64,000 nucleotides of DNA from Eledone cirrhosa (taxonomy: Eukaryota). How positions within the stretch are numbered: the stretch's first letter is position 1; each line of letters opens with the position of its first letter. The notes under the pieces were generated by a model. It did not search any database. It saw nothing but the letters and a program-made list of their open reading frames with translations, and was not told the origin of the DNA. The stretch lies in NCBI GenBank assembly GCA_964016885.1, contig OZ024742.1, forward strand, positions 149,420,001 through 149,484,000, written 5' to 3'. Both the position numbers and the translations under genes were made by a program. Below, piece after piece: positions 1,206-64,000 of the stretch.

Positions 1206-4200
1206 ATGGCCAATATAAGAGTTGGATGTGTGAATGCACGCGGCCTGGGGATGTCCTGGAAACAGGGCAAACTCTTAAATGACCTCAGGTCGCAGAGTGG
1301 ATGTAATGGTTATTTGCGAGTCCAGGATCAGCAGCGAGCGCCAACTGGCCCCCATCTTTGACGACTTTGAGATCTACGCATCTCTCTGTCAGCCGAGGGG
1401 TGGGGGTGGGGTTGTCGTTCTGCTGCGAAAATACCTGGGTCTTGCCACACAGAAGGTACACCTGGACCCGGAGGGTCGACTGGTGGTTTTAGACGTCGGC
1501 AGTGGTGAAGGTGGAGCTTTCAGGCTGGTGGCAGCGTATGCCCCATCTGGGACACCGCGACCGGACTTCTTCCGACGCCTGGAGAATTTCCTGGAAACGT
1601 CTCGCTCCTTGCTTTTAGTGGGGGACTGGAATAGTATCCTGGATGCACGTTGGGACTATGTAGGGGCATGTCCCGATAGAGAGGGGGGTGTAACAGCCTC
1701 AAAGGATTAATCGGCCGATTTGATCTGGCCGATAGATATCGACTGGATTTTCCGACTGTGCCACGGTGGACGTGGAGTAATCGCAGTGGAACATCCAGGT
1801 CGTACCTAGATAGGTTCCTAGTTAGAAATAAGGATAGGGACATATTAAGCTGTCCACGAATGTTCATGGTTGACTATTCGGATCACAAGTTGTTGACCGG
1901 AGTGGTCAACCTTGATAGAACTCATAGACAGGGACCCGGTTACTGGAAGCTAAACTTGTCTTTACCGACAAACAAAGCTTACAGTAAGCGGATTAGCACA
2001 CTAGTTAAGCAGCGTTTGACGGGGGCAATTGTCAACAGCAGGTGGTGGGGCTCTCTCAAGAGAGAAATTAAAATAGAATCGATAGGTTTTAGTCGGGAAT
2101 TAGCATCAGATAGGAATAGAACTGAAAGGGAATTAACAAATAGAGTAGAAGAGGCGATTAGGAGTGGCAACGTGGCCGGCGTGCTGGCGTCAAGAACGGC
2201 CCTAGAACAGTTCTTTGATGCGAAGCACGAGGGCTGCGTTGTCAGGAGTAAAATACGTGCTCTGGGTAACGAGGGAGCCAAAGCTGTTAGCTGGGCCCGA
2301 GTGACAGAGGCAAAAAGTGGAAACAAGTCCACGATTCGGTCTTTGAAGGACCAGGATGGACGCGTGATCCTTGAACCTGAGCGGATGAGCGCGGCCTTTC
2401 AACGGCGCTTTGCACGACTGTTCGGGAGGAGCGGCGGGCCGGGTGGGGCCATGGATTTCGGTCCATACCTCGACGGTCTGGCGCGGCTCTCGGACGGGGA
2501 GGCGAAGTCCTGCGAGAGGCCGATTTCAGCCGCTGAAATAGGGAAAGCGCTGAGCCAATGCGGCAAACGCAAATCTCCGGGTCTCGATGGTCTACCATAC
2601 GAACTTTATGTAGCGATGCCGGGCTTGTTCTCCGGTCTCCTCGAGGCGGTCTACTGCAACTGGCAACAGAACGGGAGAATTCCCAGTTCTGTGACCAAGG
2701 GCGTAGTCACGCTGGTGAGGAAGGTCGAGAACAAGGGGGATGACATAGATAACTTCAGGCCCATAACTCTGCTAAACACAGAGTTAAAGATTTTGGCCAA
2801 GGTGTTAGCGAAGAGGTTGGCGCTTGTCGTCGGGAACCTGGTGGGAGAAGCGCAGACATGCGCAATCCCGTCCAGGTCCATACACGACAACCTCCACCTC
2901 ATGCGATACATCGTAGAGAGGGTAGGGAACGAACCCGGCTTTGGTGGGGCCCTGATAAACTTGGATCAATCTAAAGCGTTCGATAGGGTTGACCATCGGT
3001 ACCTGGATGCGGTGCTCGCGGCGGCAGGCTTCGGACCTGTTTTCAGGGGCTGGATTGCTGCAATGCACAGCAGCAACACCTGCTCGAGGGTCAAGGTGAA
3101 CGGCTACCTCTCGGAGCCGTTCCAAATCACGCGATCCATTCGACAGGGATGCCCTCTCTCCTCCCTTCTGTATGTGCTGGCTCTCGAGCCACTACTGAGG
3201 AAGCTGGAGCTGTTGCAGGGCATCCCCTTGGAACCGGGATTGCGGAAAGCGGTGTCGGCCTACGCCGATGACGTGACAGTAATGGTGTCGTGCGCCTCGG
3301 AAATCGGGCAGATCGGCACCTTACTGGAGGAATATGAAAGGTTCACAGGAGCCAAGCTGAACCGGGACAAGTCCGTCGGTTTGCAACTCGGGACGTGGAG
3401 GGGCAAAACGATGCCCTCCGACGGCATCGTCGGACGCTGGACGGAAGGACCGGTGAAGCTGCTCGGGGTCTGGTTCGGACCGGACCTCCAGGTGGAGAAA
3501 AACTGGGACGAGGTAACGGGCAAGGTGTTTGCACTCGCCCAGAAGTGGGCCGAGTGCAAACTATCCCTGAAAGGTCGAGCGGAGGTGGCGAACGCTTATA
3601 TAGCGTCCGTCATCTACTACCGCTTGACCGTCGTGCCTTGCCTAGAGAAAACACTCGCCAAAATGGAGCGCGCGCTCTTCCGATTTCTTTGAAAGAAGCG
3701 GGCTTCTTTGGTGAGAAGATCCATCTGCTGTCAACACCCTTCGAACGGAGGGCTGGGGAAGCCGTGGCTGACGATGCGTAGACACGCATTAAGGCTACGG
3801 CACCTCCAGGTATTCCTCACCGGTCAGCCGGTGTGGGCCCTGTTTGTGAAGCGAGCCTTTCCGAGACTCGTCTCACTCACCGAGCTGCAATCCTGGATCA
3901 AGCAAAGACCGAGAAAAATGGGCGACTGGCACATTGAATGTGCCCAGGCGCTCACGGCCCTCTGGCAAGCGGATCCGGCAATCAGTGGAGACTCAACCTC
4001 AACATTCTATAGAGGGTTGGTGCGCAGTAAGTGCGACGACGCTCTCGGACAGGCTCTGGGCATGGAGGAAGACGAGCTGGCCAGTCTGTTCGGTAGGACG
4101 TTTGGCCCGGGACCGATGGACAACTTCCAAAAGTCCCTGGCTTGGCAATGTTACCGAGGAGCTCTACCCGTTCGGGACAAGCTCTACAGACACGGGCGCC

Positions 4201-4643
4201 CGGGTAGGGACCCCTCGAAGAAGATCTGTCCAAGATGCGTGCGTGACGAGGAAACCGTCGCACACGCATTCGTACACTGCCCGGGCGTTGCTGACCTGTG
4301 GGGCTATGTAGAACGACTACTGTCGCGGGTGGGACCAATCCGGTTGACCACCGAGAACATTGTCACAATCAAACCGCCTCCCCCTTTCAAAAACGAAGGA
4401 GAGGCGGTTTTCCTCTGTGTGATAGCCATGGCGAAAGAAGTTGTATGGTGGACAAGGTTGAAAGGGCTGAGGTCAGACACCTATCTCTCCGGCCAACAAC
4501 TGGTCTTTTTTTTCAAGTACCACTTTAGAAGAAGGATCAGAATGGAGAGAGAGGTGCTCTACCCCAGCAAGTTTTATGAAAGATGGGTGAAAGTAGCGAG
4601 AATGGCCCGAGTGAATGGGCCTTCTCTCTATATCAGCCTGTAG
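1206..4643 (+). pseudogene. LINE ORF2: AP endonuclease, reverse transcriptase and zinc finger, with 3 lesions
   Basis: ATG at 1206 gives MANIRVGCVNARGL. EN motifs: VICESR, AYAP, GDWN, SYLDRFL, SDHK. RT motifs: KSPGLDG, FRPITLLN, DQSKAFDRV, RQGCPLS, YADD. C-terminal CPRC-x8-HAFVHC. Lesions: frameshift near 1290, frameshift in the G-run 1683-1688, in-frame TGA at 3690-3692. Confidence 0.92.
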
Positions 4644-12556: not shown

Positions 12557-12892
<336 letters not shown>

Positions 12893-15618: not shown

Positions 15619-16281
15619 GGCATAGGTTAATTATAACGTCCGCGAAAGTGAAAGTCAATTTTCTGATAAGTGAATGTGTTGTTTTTTTTTTTTACAGTGA
15701 AATTTACGATAAACTCTTTGTTTATTTACAACAGGTCTCTATAGTGATATGGTGTTAATTAGTATTGCGTGTGTGATTATTTTCTCTTATATATATATGT
15801 GCGGGTGTGTATATGTGTGTATATATATGTGTGTCTGTATGTATATATATATGTGTGTTTGTATATATATATGTGTTTGTGTCATCATCATCGTTTAGAT
15901 GTTTTTACCCAAATCCCTTATCATTATCTGTCCTTCTTATGACCCGGTCTTAATTTATTTATAGTTGGTGCCAACTTTGGCAAGATATTACAAAAACATC
16001 TAAACGATGATGATGACACAAACACATATATATATACAAACACACATATATATATACATACAGACACACATATATATACACACATATACACACCCAGACA
16101 TATATATATATAAGAGAAAATAATCACACACGCAATACTAATTAACACCATATCACTATAGAAACCTGTTGTAAATAAACAAAGAGTTTATCGTAAATTT
16201 CACTGTAAAAAAAAAAGCAAACACATTCACTTGTCAGAAAACTGACTTTCACTTTCGCGGACGTTATAATTAACCTATGCC
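15619..16281. mobile_element. Foldback/MITE with about 288-bp TIRs and an 8-bp TSD (Merlin-like termini)
   Basis: Arms 15619-15906 and 15992-16281, 85-bp spacer, termini GGCATAGG...CCTATGCC, exact TSD GTATAGTT at 15611-15618 and 16282-16289. Confidence 0.88.
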
Positions 16282-28059: not shown

Positions 28060-29065
28060 AGTCGCAGGATTTATTGGCGTCAGCATAGCTGGCGATGTTG
28101 CCAACCTATTTATGGTATGGTAGGAAAGGAGACTCAGAGAACCCCTAGTATAGAAATCCATAGTCCTCGTCATGTACTCTTGTTACGTAGATGATATCAA
28201 TATAGTAATAAAAACAACCCCACAAGAGAGTACCAATAAACCCGAATTAGAAACTAACACAATGGAGAGCATCCAGCAGATAGCTAATTCCATACACCAG
28301 AGCATAACAGTAATTATCGACTACTCTTCGAAACACTTTAACAATAGACTACCAGTATTAGACACTGAACTCTGGTTAAACACTATAAACGAGAAAACCA
28401 AAATTCTCCACTCACATTATGCTAAACCCATGGCCTCTAAATACCTTATACACAAAAAGTCAGCTATGTCCAATAGTGCTAAGTTTAATATCCTGATCGC
28501 AGACTTGGTAAGACTGATGAAGAAGGTATCCCGCATGTACAATCCAATTGAACTGGAAAGACACATCCAATACTTCATCAATCGTATGCAGTTCTCTGGC
28601 TACAACCAAAGAAACAGAATCAGGGGGTACAAAGGAGCCACGGAGAAATATAAGACCCTCATAGAGATGGACATGAAAGGGATTTGCCCATTGTACAGGA
28701 GCAAATCATAGAATAGGACTAAAAATAAGATAGGGAAAGCCACTTCATAGTACGACAACCAGAGATACCAGAGTGTCATGTTCGTGTATGCAACCTCTGG
28801 AGTTGAATTAGCTAACCAATTTAGAAAGGCCCTAAGAAAGACGCATTTAAAGATTAAAGTGGTAGAAAATCCAGGAACTACCATAAAATCCATGATCAGC
28901 AAAACTTACCCCTTTAGGAAAACCCAATGTACGAATAAGAAATGTGTTATATGTAGAATAAATCCACAAATAAATTGTAAAACTAGAAATGTAGTCTATA
29001 GCATAAGATGTTCAGAGGGTACTTGCAGAAACATGACAACGACATACATAGGGGAGACAGTTCGG
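28060..29065 (+). pseudogene. Penelope-like element (Neptune-type) RT C-terminus plus GIY-YIG endonuclease fragment
   Basis: GVSIAGDVANLFM, YSCYVDDI, LPVLDTEL, HKKSAMS..K, MQFSGY; Cys linker CTNKKCVIC; then NCKTRNVVYSIRC...YIGET. Stops and a frameshift are present. Confidence 0.88.
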
Positions 29066-30759: not shown

Positions 30760-32563
30760 TATATATATAAAGTTCTAGTTCCTGTCTGATTGTTTGTTCA
30801 CGAACTCCTCCTATGGTTTTGGAGATAGACCCCCCATAACCATATATATTCTGAAACTATATTTCCCAGGGTACTTGGATAAGTATATTTCCTTTTAATC
30901 AAAGGGCTCCCCGGGGGCAAAAACCCCTGCTGAAAATCTTTTCCCTTCGATTCATATGAAATTTAAACCATAGGTAAATGACAAGATATGATACCTATTC
31001 ACAAAATTTCAGCAAATTCCAATAATATTAAGACACCCTAATGGGGGTTAAACACCCTATAGTGAACATTTTGGAAGCCCAAATAAATTAATGCTTTACA
31101 CAAAAATGAAATGATATTTTGAAAAAAATTATTTACAAGAAACAAAATAAGAATAAGATTTAATAATGTAATTTTGATTTGATATATTACAAAAAATAAT
31201 GTTTTCCAAATTTTCATGCATTACATTTTACATTGAGTAATATTGAAATGCAGAGTTTTTCTCCATAAATTATATCACTGATTTAAAATCAATCATCATT
31301 TTCTTATCTGTTAGATACGCAGTGACTAACACCAGAATGTTTTAAGTCTGCATGTTGTCTGACATGACAATATATGCGTAGCTTGTGAATAAAATATTCA
31401 AGGAGTATCGCTGACCGTGGCGATTCCTTCCAAACATGTTTTGTAATGTATCGTCTTATTGGCTAATTTCATCGTCTTATTGGCTAATCAACCAGCGAGA
31501 GTAATTGTTGCTCAAAAGCGTTTTGTTTGCACGTTTATTTATCGTTTCGCTTTCGAATCTCTCTCCTGTATTTTGTCGTTTTATCATCAAAATATTTTTC
31601 TCGTTTTAGTAAGATATATTGTTAATTTAAATATGATTTTTTAAATTTATATTAACTATTTTTTTTTTCAGTTCGTTATAACTTTATCTGAAAACGTGTG
31701 TTGAAACCGATATTGTTATGCTTTGGGAGGGTCATGTTGCAGAATGTGTGACGAAAGAACTTTGACAATATATGAACAATCGTCTGGTTATGGAACCAAC
31801 CAACCGGAAATTTATAAATTCTTAAATTTATAAATTTAATTTATAATAAATTGAAGTGAAAGCAATGGTGCGTGTGTTTCTTATTGGCAACATGACCCTC
31901 CCAAAGCATAACAATAATTATTATGTAAAATATATTTATTTAATATTGATTGTTTTTTGTAGTTGTTTATAGTAAAAGTCTGAAAATATTTTTATACATC
32001 TTACAATAATATTTATAAGATCATTTATAAAATAACAATTATATAATTACAACGATAATTTATTATTAATATATATCATGTTTAACTAGAGTTATTACAA
32101 GCGTTGCCTTAAAAATATATTAAACTAGACCTGAAAAATGCGCAAGCTCAAAAGAGCCACAGAATGTTATAATAAACCTTCAAAAGTGTGGGACTAGAGT
32201 TGTTGCTCAAAAATATTGTAATCATTATCTATCGTACACGCTGTGGCATCCTTTTATAAAAAAGAGACTCATAACGAACTCAAGACGACACGATAATTAT
32301 TTAAGTGAATTTATAATATAGAATTCGGTTTAAGTGCATTTCGTATTAATCATTACTAAACATCTAATATGAGAACATTAGCTTAAATAATTATCGTGTC
32401 GTCTTGAGTTCGTTATGAGTCTCTTTTTTATAAAAGGATGCCACAGAGTGTACGATAGATAATGATTACAATATTTTTTAGCAACAACTCTAGTCCCACA
32501 CTTTTGAAGGTTTATTATAACATTCTGTGGCTCTTTTGAGCTTGCGCATTTTTCAGGTCTAGT
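30760..32563 (+). mobile_element. Probable non-autonomous Helitron-like element with internal inverted repeats
   Basis: Starts TATATATAAAG...TGTCTGATTGTTTGTTCACG and ends CAGGTCTAG|T before a TA tract. 29-bp IR near 31712-31740/31888-31916 and 182-bp IR at 32124-32305/32382-32563. Confidence 0.45.
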
Positions 32564-33355
32564 ATATATATATGTATGTATATATATATGTATGTATATG
32601 TATGTATATAAATGTATGCATAGAGGGAGGGGGCTGAAGGAGAGAGAAATCAAACAGTGATAAATAAAAAAAATTGAAAATGTAAAATTGTACAAAGGCA
32701 CACACAAAACTAGATAAATAGCTAGCTATACACATCCAACACACATAGCAGACACAAAATGCTAATTGTATCAGCAATTCTTTTCTTATTAATTATGGTT
32801 AAGCCAAAGTTAATCAGTGGCAGCTGTATATTTCATGTTAAAATAAATAAAACATGGTTAACCATTCGTTAATAATTAGGAGGAACTTGATGTAAACAAA
32901 ATAACGTCAACGACCGGATTAATGAAATAACAAGTTTCAATAATTTCACTGTTAAAGGATGATGGGTTGGCATCGGATAAAATGCCATTATGATATTTGT
33001 TCTAGTGCTTTACATTCTCAGTTCAAATCCCGACGATGTCAACTTTGCTTTTCATCCTTCTAGCTTAGTTAAAATAAAGTACCAGTCAAATACTGGGTTT
33101 GATTTAATTAACTTTGCTCTTCACCCAAATTTGTTGGCATTTTGCCTAAATTATAATCGATAGTTTTCGCTGTTGAACTTAATAAATATTTCCGTTTGGG
33201 TAAAGAAAATGATATGTTTTAAATCAGCAAAATCATGATAAAATAACAAAGACAAAAGAAAAGTGATCTAAGTTGTATTACACCATGAAGTAAGTGGATA
33301 ACTGTCAACGTTACACATATATGTATGTATGCATATATACATATATACACATATG

Positions 33356-56859: not shown

Positions 56860-57046
56860 CAAAGGAAATGTGGTAAGGAACCAGGTGGACCATAACGCAC
56901 CAAAGTACTCAATACTTAGGGTAGTAGAGTGGGTAATAGGAACAAGTAAGACTCCGACGGCTGAGCTCAAGCCGTTTCGACGGCTAATTCTGGATTAGCC
57001 GTCGAAACGGCTTGAGCTCAACCGTCGGGGTCTTACTTGTTCCTAT
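56858..57046 (-). mobile_element. Hairpin-ended hammerhead-half element, copy 3
   Basis: Reverse complement of the 12557 element. Palindrome 56936-57046 with 53-bp arms and a 5-nt loop. (TA)n on both sides. Confidence 0.8.
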
Positions 57047-59051: not shown

Positions 59052-59178
59052 AAAGTTTTATTTAAAATTGTTGGGTTACAACGAATAAATATTTTATAAC
59101 TGGTATAAAGCACTCAACAAGTTTTGGAGTAGATATACGATATTAAACAAATGGAAACTATATTTATAAAACCATATT

Positions 59179-59244
59179 TATTTCATTATACATATTTCAG
59201 GGATACCATATTAGAAATATGGCATGCCTTCTTCAGATAAAATA
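59179..59244 (-). ncRNA. Type I hammerhead ribozyme, mirror copy in the left arm
   Basis: Reverse complement of 59379-59444. Confidence 0.85.
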
Positions 59245-59378
59245 CAATATATAAGCAGTTTTATAAATAAATTTGACGTACCATAAATATTGTTCAACTT
59301 CCATTTAAAAAAGTTGGTTTGGAAGTTGAACAATATTTATGGTACGTAAAATTTATTTATAAAACTGCTTATATATTG

Positions 59379-59444
59379 TATTTTATCTGAAGAAGGCATG
59401 CCATATTTCTAATATGGTATCCCTGAAATATGTATAATGAAATA
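59379..59444 (+). ncRNA. Type I hammerhead ribozyme, intact core
   Basis: UAUUUUAU-CUGAAGA-AGGCAUGCCAUAUU(UCU)AAUAUGGUAUCCCU-GAAA-UAUGUA-UA|AUGAAAUA. 8-bp stem I, 13/14-bp stem II, short near-palindromic stem III, AUA cleavage triplet. Confidence 0.85.
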
Positions 59445-59484
59445 AATATGGTTTTATAAATATAGTTTCCATTTGTTTAATATC

Positions 59485-59520
<36 letters not shown>

Positions 59521-59626: not shown

Positions 59627-60076
59627 GTACTAAGAGTGAGAAATGAAATTTCTTTCATTTTTTCCGTTTATCGTTTTCGGTACCCCGGCCGATTAACTCA
59701 CTCGATATGCAAATTAGGCTGCTCAGCCGTTAATATGCATAAGGAAAGTATATACTTTCAGACGTTCATTCATCTGGCAGGAAGGTATACGTTGCTGACG
59801 ATAGCTAATAAGCTTGAAACTAGTACAGCGTTCATTTGTCAGTGTTGAACAAATGAGCAACGATGGCTGCTGGACACTACGGCTTAATACGGGCTGTTTG
59901 TTTACAAACACACCGAGCATTATAATAAATGTTCGGTGAATCCATACGTACATATATATATGTGTGGATGTATGTATATATATATACATACTATTGTACG
60001 TCTGTTTACTTATATGTATGTACGTATACATACTTATATATATACATATACATATATATATATAATCCTGATCGAG

Positions 60077-61380: not shown

Positions 61381-61711
61381 TTTCCAGAGATTGACTGGGG
61401 AGATAGGACTGTCCGTCTTTCCGTAGTTTTTGTCCATTGTCTTTGTCCAGTGTGCCCCCTCTATTTTGAATATATATATATATTGAATATATCCCCCCCC
61501 CCACCCCAACTCTCAAGTGAACCTAATACGTAACACCTTTCGTAGCTGTACTCCTTGTTGTTGTTATTTACTTTTCCAATATATATATATATATATATAT
61601 ACAGTATTTTCCGTAGTGTTGTAATATAAATATTACACACAGTAGATGGACAGCTCACGTAGAGTTTGCTCGACGGTTCCAGTTGTAGTTCCAAAAGTAA
61701 TCCGGAGAAAA

Positions 61712-63001
61712 ATAGAAGGATTTAAATGGATACAGTTTAGTTAAAAGGAATTTATTGACACGTGTTTCAATAACAGTTATATAACCTGAAAACAGCTGCT
61801 ATCTACAAAGTATTAGTTATGCAGACATTCAATATTTCAATGTTATTATCAACTGTCATTTCATCAGAATAATTTTACTGAGGACCTGTTTGGTTTTTAT
61901 AGAGAATATTAGGAGGGAGGGGTGAAGTTGTTAGAAGAATAGTCGAGGGAGTGGTTTTTTGATAGCAGTGGGAATTTTTGGTGGCAGTGAGTAATTAGAT
62001 TCCCATCTGTTGTTTTGACATTTTTATAGAATATATTATTGGTTATTTTTCTAAATCTATAGAAGGATTAGAGATAGTATAGATATGCATGGTTGGTTTT
62101 GTGTTTGCACTTAATTAACATTCAGACTTAAATTTTTCTTTCAAGTGTACGTATCCTTTCGCCCACGCATTCACACACAAACATATATGCACACCTCTAC
62201 AAAATACATATACTCACATACACATACTTACATGCTCATACTTACATACATATACACATGCACATATATATATATATACATATATATATATACATGTACA
62301 TACATACGCATTCATGTGTATACATTTTCATACTCAACTTATCTGTCTATACGTGTGTATATAAAGATAAGTTGAGTATGAAAATGTATACACATGAATG
62401 CGTATGTATGTACATGTATATATGTATATATATATGTATATATATATATGTGCATGTGTATATGTATGTAAGTATGAGCATGTAAGTATGTGTATGTGAG
62501 TATATGTATTTTGTAGAGGTGTGCATATATGTTTGTGTGTGAATGCGTGGGCGAAAGGATACGTACACTTGAAAGAAAAATTTAAGTCTGAATGTTAATT
62601 AAGTGCAAACACAAAACCAACCATGCATATCTATACTATCTCTAATCCTTCTATAGATTTAGAAAAATAACCAATAATATATTCTATAAAAATGTCAAAA
62701 CAACAGATGGGAATCTAATTACTCACTGCCACCAAAAATTCTCACTGCTATCAAAAAACCACTCCCTCAACTATTCTTCTAACAACTTCACCCCTCCCTC
62801 CTAATATTCTCTATAAAAACTAAACAGGTCCTCAGTAAAATTATACTGATGAAATGACAGTTGATAATAACATTGAAATATTGAATGTCTGCATAACTAA
62901 TACTTTGTAGATAGCAGCTTTTTTCAGGTTATGTAACTGTTATTGAGACACGTGTCAATAAATTCCTTTTAACTAAACTGTATCCATTTAAATCCTTCTA
63001 T
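61712..63001. mobile_element. 1.29-kb palindrome (about 633-bp arms, 20-bp spacer) with a hammerhead motif near each outer end
   Basis: Arms 61712-62344 and 62365-63001 are reverse complements with only scattered differences. The right end abuts (TA)n. Confidence 0.88.
61752..61872 (-). ncRNA. Type I hammerhead ribozyme with a 72-nt loop II, intact core
   Basis: UUAUU-CUGAUGA-AAUGACAGUU[72 nt]AACUGUUAUU-GAAA-CACGUG-UC|AAUAA. Palindromic stem III and a GUC triplet. The mirror copy (+, 62841-62961) has GAGA in place of GAAA. Confidence 0.8.
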
Positions 63002-63131
63002 ATATATATATATCAAGATAAGCAGAACAAGTAAAAATTCAATCAATTTTTCAAAATAAATCAAAATTAATATACAATCAAAATTAATCAAAATTAAAAA
63101 ATATAATATAAATATTTACCTATTCTAATGG

Positions 63132-63209
63132 CCCTAACTGTACAGTTTCACGGTGCAAAACATTAAATATCACCAGGATATCAATGGAAAAGCAACGATC
63201 ATCAGAGAA
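63132..63209 (-). ncRNA. Type I hammerhead ribozyme (repeat 1)
   Basis: UUCU-CUGAUGA-UCGUUGC[35 nt]GCACCGU-GAAA-CUGUACAG-UU|AGGG. Stem III (ACUGUACAGU) is self-complementary. Stem II has one internal mismatch. Confidence 0.75.
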
Positions 63210-63659
63210 GCATTTTCCTGTCCTAGGGTTAAAAACCCCAGGAACGACAAAATATATGACCTCACTCCAACTAATACAGGTCTAAAAGGTCGTGAAAGTG
63301 ACCCGTAAATACATTGGTGTATAGTGAAGGCGGGAAATCGTAGACTCGCCGTCTATAGCTCGCCACTAAAAAAAGATTTTTAGTAACTAAATATAACGAC
63401 AAAATTTGTATCTCTACATATGGAGATTATTGAAAAAGGTTAATATATATCTGAGGGTACAATGTACCCCCGGAAATATATAGTGTGTCTATGATTTAAG
63501 GTGGTTCTATAGTAATAATTTGATATACCAGAACATAATATCAAGATAAGCAGAACAAGTAAAAATTCAATCAATTTTTCAAAATAAATCAAAATTAATA
63601 TACAATCAAAATTAATCAAAATTAAAAAATATAATATAAATATTTACCTATTCTAATGG

Positions 63660-63737
63660 CCCTAACTGTACAGTTTCACGGTGCAAAACATTAAATATCA
63701 CCAGGATATCAATGGAAAAGCAACGATCATCAGAGAA
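63660..63737 (-). ncRNA. Type I hammerhead ribozyme (repeat 2)
   Basis: Same sequence as 63132-63209, 528 bp away. Confidence 0.75.
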
Positions 63738-64000
63738 GCATTTTCCTGTCCTAGGGTTAAAAACCCCAATATATATATATATATAAATGTAAGTATGTAT
63801 GTATGTATACGTACATACATATATGTATACAGACGTACAGTAGTATGTATATATATATACATACATGCACACATATATATATGCACGTATCGGTTTACCG
63901 AACATTTATTATAATGCTCGGTTTGTTTGTTTGTAAACAAACAAACAGCCCGAATTACGCCGTACAGTGTTTAGGCAACCACGTCACCTTTTTGTTCAAC

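What the first reader, a model, noticed from the sequence alone, without database searches (positions are those of the whole stretch)
61712..63001. 1.3-kb palindrome with a large-loop hammerhead, intact in one arm and core-mutated in the other
Seen: about 633-bp arms and a 20-bp spacer that is itself nearly palindromic. The left arm (minus strand) has a complete HHR with a 10-bp stem II capped by 72 nt and a CACGUG stem III. The right arm has GAAA>GAGA plus a stem I change. The scattered arm differences argue against a pure read-chimera artefact. Known: palindromes this long with tiny spacers are unstable, and A14 is a conserved core residue. Inference: the same fold-back insertion mechanism as at 59133, at larger scale. 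The long loop II would evade standard minimal-HHR searches.
Basis: partly seen in the sequence, partly recalled or inferred. Interest (0 to 1): 0.74.

Follow-up and report, generated by a model that had tools for sequence, protein, structure and literature searches.

The report
Penelope palindrome with long-armed hammerhead
This mirror-image DNA is two back-to-back end-pieces of an abundant Penelope-like jumping gene, likely made by copying its RNA from both sides of one DNA cut, a known kind of insertion; its unusual part is a hammerhead ribozyme motif with one arm three to four times longer than in published relatives, whose cutting is untested.

Summary
The palindrome is real, but it is an ordinary product of a young Hydra-clade Penelope-like retroelement (PLE) with about 3,500 hammerhead copies in this genome. 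The insertion spans 61602-63001, between (TA)n tracts. The left copy carries an extra 110-bp tail. The "spacer" is 20 more bases of the right copy. This layout excludes simple fold-back and fits two separately primed cDNAs. In 24 of 26 two-ended loci one end has the tail and the other lacks it. The A14G change is sporadic decay (5 of 3,470 copies). The "72-nt loop" is predicted to fold as a rod, giving a 92-nt stem II. Paired changes keep this fold in 26 selected relatives (covariation 0.329 against 0.205 shuffled). Published Hydra hammerheads have about 26 nt or less. Six copies begin exactly at the predicted cut, against 1, 2 and 0 at control sites (p about 0.03), a weak hint of rare cleavage. 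No long reads or RNA were seen. This scan has already reported long-armed PLE hammerheads and twin-primed palindromes on other DNA of this and other genomes.

The parts
61579..61601 (.). (TA)n tract, left side of the target
61602..61711 (-). 110-bp element tail, between the short end and the long end; in tandem copies it leads on to the ORF start
61712..62344 (-). left arm: 5'-truncated 3' UTR/pseudo-LTR copy of a Hydra-clade PLE, tail-bearing
61749..61874 (-). type I hammerhead motif with intact core: CUGAUGA 61867-61861, GAA 61768-61766, stem III 61765-61758, predicted cut between 61757 and 61756
61769..61860 (-). 92-nt domain II, predicted rod of about 35 bp in stacked helices with a 12-nt loop
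62345..62364 (+). apparent spacer: the first 20 nt of the right copy; the junction sequence is unique in the genome
62345..63001 (+). right copy: 5'-truncated PLE end stopping at the short end, no tail
62839..62964 (+). damaged hammerhead: A14G at 62947, stem I U>A at 62845, G>U at 62920 in the rod
63002..63014 (.). (TA)n tract, right side of the target

Best explanation
The palindrome is one insertion of two head-to-head, 5'-truncated end copies of a Hydra-clade Penelope-like retroelement in a (TA)n tract, likely made when the element's protein cut both DNA strands and primed two separate cDNAs from two start sites 110 nt apart on its RNA. Shown: family membership, the two end types, the junction anatomy, and the sporadic nature of A14G. 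Inferred: both cDNAs stopped early, about 590-610 nt upstream of the predicted hammerhead cut, and were joined with about 1 nt of homology, perhaps helped by the near-palindromic 20-mer. Each arm then mutated on its own. The hammerhead belongs to the parent's pseudo-LTR. Its long stem II is an old, structure-conserved trait of this lineage. With a palindromic 3-4 bp stem III it would cut weakly and mostly as a dimer or with protein help. The template for this insertion was read through the cut site, so it was uncut or re-joined there.
For: Family: 1485 first-look candidates, the 40 best places at 98-100%; 3,465 exact matches to a 30-nt core pattern, control 0. Parent ORF of 750 aa in L031 with RWK, DKT, YRDD and C-terminal IIY..YVG; a second copy (L101) shows CNC...CPLGNNC, CKLC and CRH. 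These match the Hydra features in PMC8557442 section 11. One of 4 homologues scanned hits Pfam RVT_1. Ends: of 33 loci examined, 26 showed both outer ends; 24 had one tail end and one short end, 1 a partial tail, 1 two tails (read). The short-end arm is longer in 11, the tail arm in 11, and 3 are unclear. Arms are closer to each other than to the median other locus in 21 of 22 pairs; mean arm-arm difference 71 of 7,444 (0.95%), this locus 7 of 439. Junction unique, 1 hit at up to 1 mismatch. In vitro a PLE protein cuts and extends both strands and starts at two sites that define the tail (PMC11167929). Structure: in 40 representatives under 75% identity with 70-107 nt inserts, basal stem II pairs 219 of 320 against 156 +/- 8 permuted (0 of 5000), stem I 125 of 160 against 99 +/- 4. 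In 26 selected sequences 74.6% of cells pair against 66.9% shuffled, and 92 cells change on both sides against 48.
Against: No read spans the locus. Twin priming is inferred from anatomy, not observed; a template switch onto a second molecule could give the same product. The tail is 110 bp, not the usual 30-40 bp. P0001 has no Pfam, NCBIfam or PDB hit, so clade placement rests on motifs and an eye comparison with Hydra-1_Obim, not a tree. RNAalifold found no consensus pairs on the same alignment. The structure was drawn by eye, and the 26 rows were picked from 39 by resemblance. Only 5 of 32 old relatives with long flanks had a PLE protein hit nearby. A U4C subfamily (8 of 69 copies) has near-identical copies at several places, and the main subfamily breaks two pairs at the top of the basal stem without compensation. 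Inner-rod folding across 39 relatives is weak (mean z -0.6, 27 of 39 below 0).
Confidence: 0.85

Rival explanations
1. Fold-back: one cDNA snapped back on the near-palindromic 20-mer and copied itself.
For: The central 20 nt can form an imperfect hairpin, about 7 of 9 pairs by eye, on the right copy's antisense strand.
Against: Folding back the right copy cannot template the 110-bp tail on the left arm. Folding back the left copy would put the central 20 nt in the opposite orientation. The short-end arm is the longer one in 11 loci.
Confidence: 0.07
2. A ready-made palindromic RNA, transcribed from an older inverted insertion, was copied whole, possibly with ADAR edits.
For: Arms of one insertion share subfamily variants. 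An earlier scan note reports A-to-G marks in such copies.
Against: This junction occurs once in the genome. Only 2 of 7 arm differences are A>G in the RNA sense, one on each arm.
Confidence: 0.04
3. Assembly or chimeric-read artefact.
For: No spanning read could be shown; only contigs and 150-nt RAD reads were laid.
Against: The arms carry their own mutations on both sides. They end at the family's two defined termini, and the same design recurs at 24 of 26 loci.
Confidence: 0.03
4. For the long arm only: it holds a splice acceptor, so splicing would remove half of the ribozyme from the mRNA.
For: A pyrimidine-rich YAG lies 12-26 nt before the end of domain II in 24 of 39 relatives, against 4.6 (max 11) in shuffles. 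The Drosophila virilis intron ends at helix I (PMC4209133).
Against: No conserved donor inside the arm (6 of 39 against 5.0 shuffled). The motif is also the 3' strand of a covarying helix. Shared ancestry can explain it.
Confidence: 0.12

Closest known systems
Hydra clade of C-terminal EN+ Penelope-like elements (Craig et al. 2021, PMC8557442; read: first tenth of text, passages, section 11, supplement parts 1-2 and passages)
   Same: RWK, DKT, linker CxC..CX5C, CxxC and CxH, (TA)n targets, inverted 5'-truncated copy, tail at one end, 3' hammerhead with short palindromic stem III
   Different: A different family from Hydra-1_Obim (by eye). Domain II is 92 nt against about 26 nt or less in the 26 Hydra rows of File S2 (counted by eye). 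Tail 110 bp against 30-40 bp. Unit about 3.5 kb against generally under 3 kb.
Minimal hammerheads in metazoan PLE pseudo-LTRs (Cervera and De la Pena 2014, PMC4209133; read: parts 1-2 of 4 and passages)
   Same: Type I core, short stem I, palindromic stem III predicted to need a dimer; pairs of motifs 100-700 bp apart on opposite strands were already noted
   Different: Helix II there is 6-8 bp; here it is a predicted rod of about 35 bp, without G10.1-C11.1
Poseidon PLE of Anolis in vitro (Frangieh et al. 2024, PMC11167929; read: parts 1-2 of 4)
   Same: Two RT start sites define the tail; both strands are cut and extended; uncut RNA is the main template; the hammerhead needs protein
   Different: Other clade; there the hammerhead overlaps the start codon, here the predicted cut lies about 210 nt before it
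Deviating PLE-X hammerheads of spike mosses (PMC8557442 File S2)
   Same: Long domain II, about 50 nt by eye, in a PLE
   Different: EN-minus plant elements in 28S rDNA; about half the length; no covariation analysis in the parts I read

Membership tests
Hydra-clade PLE | Single ORF with RT core and C-terminal GIY-YIG endonuclease | tested here: met
   FDI, MGSND, YRDD, IIY..YVG in P0001; homologue P0109 hits RVT_1; no direct profile hit for P0001
Hydra-clade PLE | RWK motif and DKG changed to DKT | tested here: met
   residues 49 and 133 of P0001
Hydra-clade PLE | No CCHH motif; CxC..CX5C linker; CxxC and CxH near the end | tested here: met
   L101 C-terminus, read by eye; L031 has one Cys changed and a frameshifted end
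Hydra-clade PLE | (TA)n insertion, inverted truncated copy, tail at one end | tested here: met
Hydra-clade PLE | Phylogenetic placement of the RT in the clade | not tested
   reference sequences were only read in the supplement
Type I hammerhead ribozyme | Core CUGANGA, GAAA, UH | tested here: met
   left arm intact; right arm A14G
Type I hammerhead ribozyme | Stems I and II kept by compensatory change | tested here: met
   in relatives; too little variation within the young family
Type I hammerhead ribozyme | Stable stem III as a monomer | tested here: not met
   not formed in the left arm's MFE; palindromic, so a dimer is predicted
Type I hammerhead ribozyme | Self-cleavage | not testable with these tools
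   indirect only: 6 copies start at the predicted cut against 1, 2, 0 at control sites (p 0.03)
Non-LTR retrozyme | Tandem short monomers, no coding parent | tested here: not met
   single inverted pair; parent has a coding ORF

The most novel reading that the evidence does not exclude
This PLE lineage has turned hammerhead stem II into a conserved multi-helix rod of 47-107 nt that works as a module of its own, likely a docking site for the element's protein that controls when the ribozyme cuts. The ribozyme cuts rarely in vivo, and about 0.4% of genomic copies record that cut as their exact 5' end. The genome would then be a fossil read-out of PLE ribozyme activity.
Probability: 0.3. Interest if true: 0.6.

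Novelty: new variant of a known kind. Interest (0 to 1): 0.33.

Why it matters
The palindrome itself is a described PLE insertion product. Two points have some value. First, the one-tail, one-short-end rule with either arm longer is genomic support for priming from both DNA ends, which the in vitro work suggested. Second, a hammerhead with a covarying stem II of about 90 nt in thousands of copies lies outside published Hydra examples, so short descriptors would undercount PLE ribozymes. It also gives a natural series of arm lengths for testing what these ribozymes do, which is still open.

Tried and rejected
Rfam: no hammerhead in the 150 listed of 222 matches for the window and none on the arm. 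The short-stem control at 59795 was missed too, so the miss says nothing about arm length. Pattern with a 2-nt loop III: 5 hits against 6 control. Pfam, NCBIfam and PDB on P0001: nothing. RNAalifold: no pairs. My first pair count was mis-registered by 1-2 columns and gave no signal; it was corrected. The constrained hammerhead fold failed. Alignment A1 (36 motifs with 59-62 nt inserts) was not pair-counted. tallies were not de-duplicated (72 rows); one search was (69 copies). L190, a false match, was inside the 40 rows and dropped. No RNA holder was listed. Laid contigs and RAD reads show the family in other runs but cannot span the locus. Splicing and expression remain untested. An ADAR origin of A14G was considered; no clustering of A>G was seen. 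Literature searches: the phrases 'long stem II' and 'extended stem II' did not occur in the 20 papers listed, out of 125 that held two of the terms. The library lacks most subscription journals, and the bioRxiv retrozyme preprint (10.64898/2026.07.22.740005) was read only in part 1 of 5, without supplements. PMC3088659 was seen as passages only.

Full report
Observation. The inverted repeat is present at 61712-63001. Aligning the arms gives 7 substitutions in unique sequence, plus a 4-bp indel and 2 substitutions in the central microsatellite. The left arm, on the minus strand, has a full hammerhead core around a 92-nt domain II, with palindromic stem III ACACGUGU and C17 at 61757. The right arm has A14G and a change in the stem I pair next to the core. 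The numbering of core positions is from my own knowledge of the standard scheme.

Parent element. The arm is the 3' end of a young repeat: 1485 candidates, the best 40 places at 98-100%. Longer loci gave a unit of about 3.5 kb with a 750-aa frame. Its motifs (RWK, DKT, FDI, YRDD, C-terminal IIY..YVG; linker and terminal Cys/His motifs in copy L101) are those listed for the Hydra clade in PMC8557442 section 11. The protein has 114 homologues at 30-45% identity, and one of four scanned hits RVT_1. By eye it resembles Hydra-1_Obim but is another family. No tree was built.

Anatomy. Copies end at one of two points: a short end, or a long end 110 nt further on. In tandem copies these 110 nt lead to the ORF start. 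The window's insertion has the long end on the left (61602) and the short end on the right (63001), each in (TA)n. The supposed spacer is continuous element sequence: the right copy begins 20 nt upstream of the left copy. The junction is found once in the genome. Of 33 loci mapped, 26 showed both outer ends. Of these, 24 had one tail end and one short end, one had a partial tail and one had two tails. The short-end arm was longer in 11, the tail arm in 11, and 3 were unclear (read). Arms resemble each other more than the median other locus in 21 of 22 pairs.

Mechanism. A hairpin copy of the right arm could not carry the tail. A hairpin copy of the left arm would hold the central 20 nt the other way round. 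Two separately primed cDNAs explain both. This fits PMC11167929, where a PLE protein cuts and extends both strands, starts at two sites that define the tail, and uses mostly uncut RNA. Inverted truncated copies and one-sided tails are described as typical of PLEs, and opposed hammerhead pairs were noted in PMC4209133. Twin priming remains an inference.

Intact versus mutated arm. A14G occurs in 5 copies against 3,465 with the normal core. Four of the seven differences are on the right arm and three on the left (not de-duplicated). The arm-arm distance of 1.6% lies within the 0-2.5% range of 22 pairs. This is decay. In a read-through transcript of either strand the antisense arm comes first, so the motif would likely be held in a long duplex (whole repeat -1070 kcal/mol).

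The long arm. The insert is predicted to fold as a rod. The exact core with an 80-105 nt insert has 2,825 matches against 1 control. Inserts of 49-79 nt give 167 and 18-48 nt give 101; these include deletion variants of the main family and some chance hits. A pattern excluding the main family gave 123. Among 40 representatives under 75% identity, basal stem II and stem I pair far above permutation (one false row included). In 26 hand-picked rows, four helices show changes on both sides; 0 of 500 shuffles reach the covariation score, and slid versions fall to 0.085-0.163. Core and stem III were fixed by the search pattern, so they are not evidence. Against: RNAalifold found nothing, the inner rod is only weakly favoured in old copies, the window's own upper rod is misaligned in that alignment, and only 5 of 32 relatives show a nearby PLE protein remnant. 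Published Hydra hammerheads have about 26 nt or less in domain II, and two spike-moss PLEs about 50 nt (File S2, counted by eye).

Does it cut? Six copies begin exactly at the predicted cut; in one of them both arms stop there. Three control positions gave 1, 2 and 0. The one-sided p is 0.03, and the estimate is about 13 of 3,500 copies. This is suggestive only. Most copies, including both arms here, were copied through the site. A U4C subfamily (8 of 69) also appears to have spread.

Verdict. Real, explained, and mostly known. The remaining novelty is the long covarying stem II, which this scan has reported before on other DNA. Interest 0.33.

Noticed in passing
window 63010-63768: Two identical 231-bp direct repeats, each with a minus-strand hammerhead motif with a 49-nt domain II and ACUG-UA-CAGU stem III; likely another PLE partial tandem in the same TA tract.
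   Followed up: partly
window 59130-59493: 364-bp palindrome with 174-bp arms between (TA)n; each arm has CUGAAGA near the centre.
   Followed up: partly
window 59785-59840: Short type I hammerhead motif (CUGACGA, 14-nt domain II, 6-bp stem I) on the plus strand, not found by Rfam.
   Followed up: partly
window 15619-16281, 32115-32573, 12557-12683, 56936-57046: Further palindromes, 89-94% self-complementary.
   Followed up: no
window 61874-61904, minus strand: TATAAAA and TCAGT just upstream of the hammerhead, possibly an internal promoter; the motifs are recalled, and their spacing of 22 nt is short.
   Followed up: no
L116-L175 (alignment A1): An old group of hammerhead motifs with 59-62 nt domain II and the same stem III; no PLE protein hit in the six loci with long flanks.
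   Followed up: partly
L031, L033, L045, L046: Subfamily with U4C in the core and an A-A at the base of stem II, copies about 99% alike.
   Followed up: partly
window 1680-4640 and 28154-28708: Long open frames that look by eye like non-LTR and PLE reverse transcriptase remnants.
   Followed up: no
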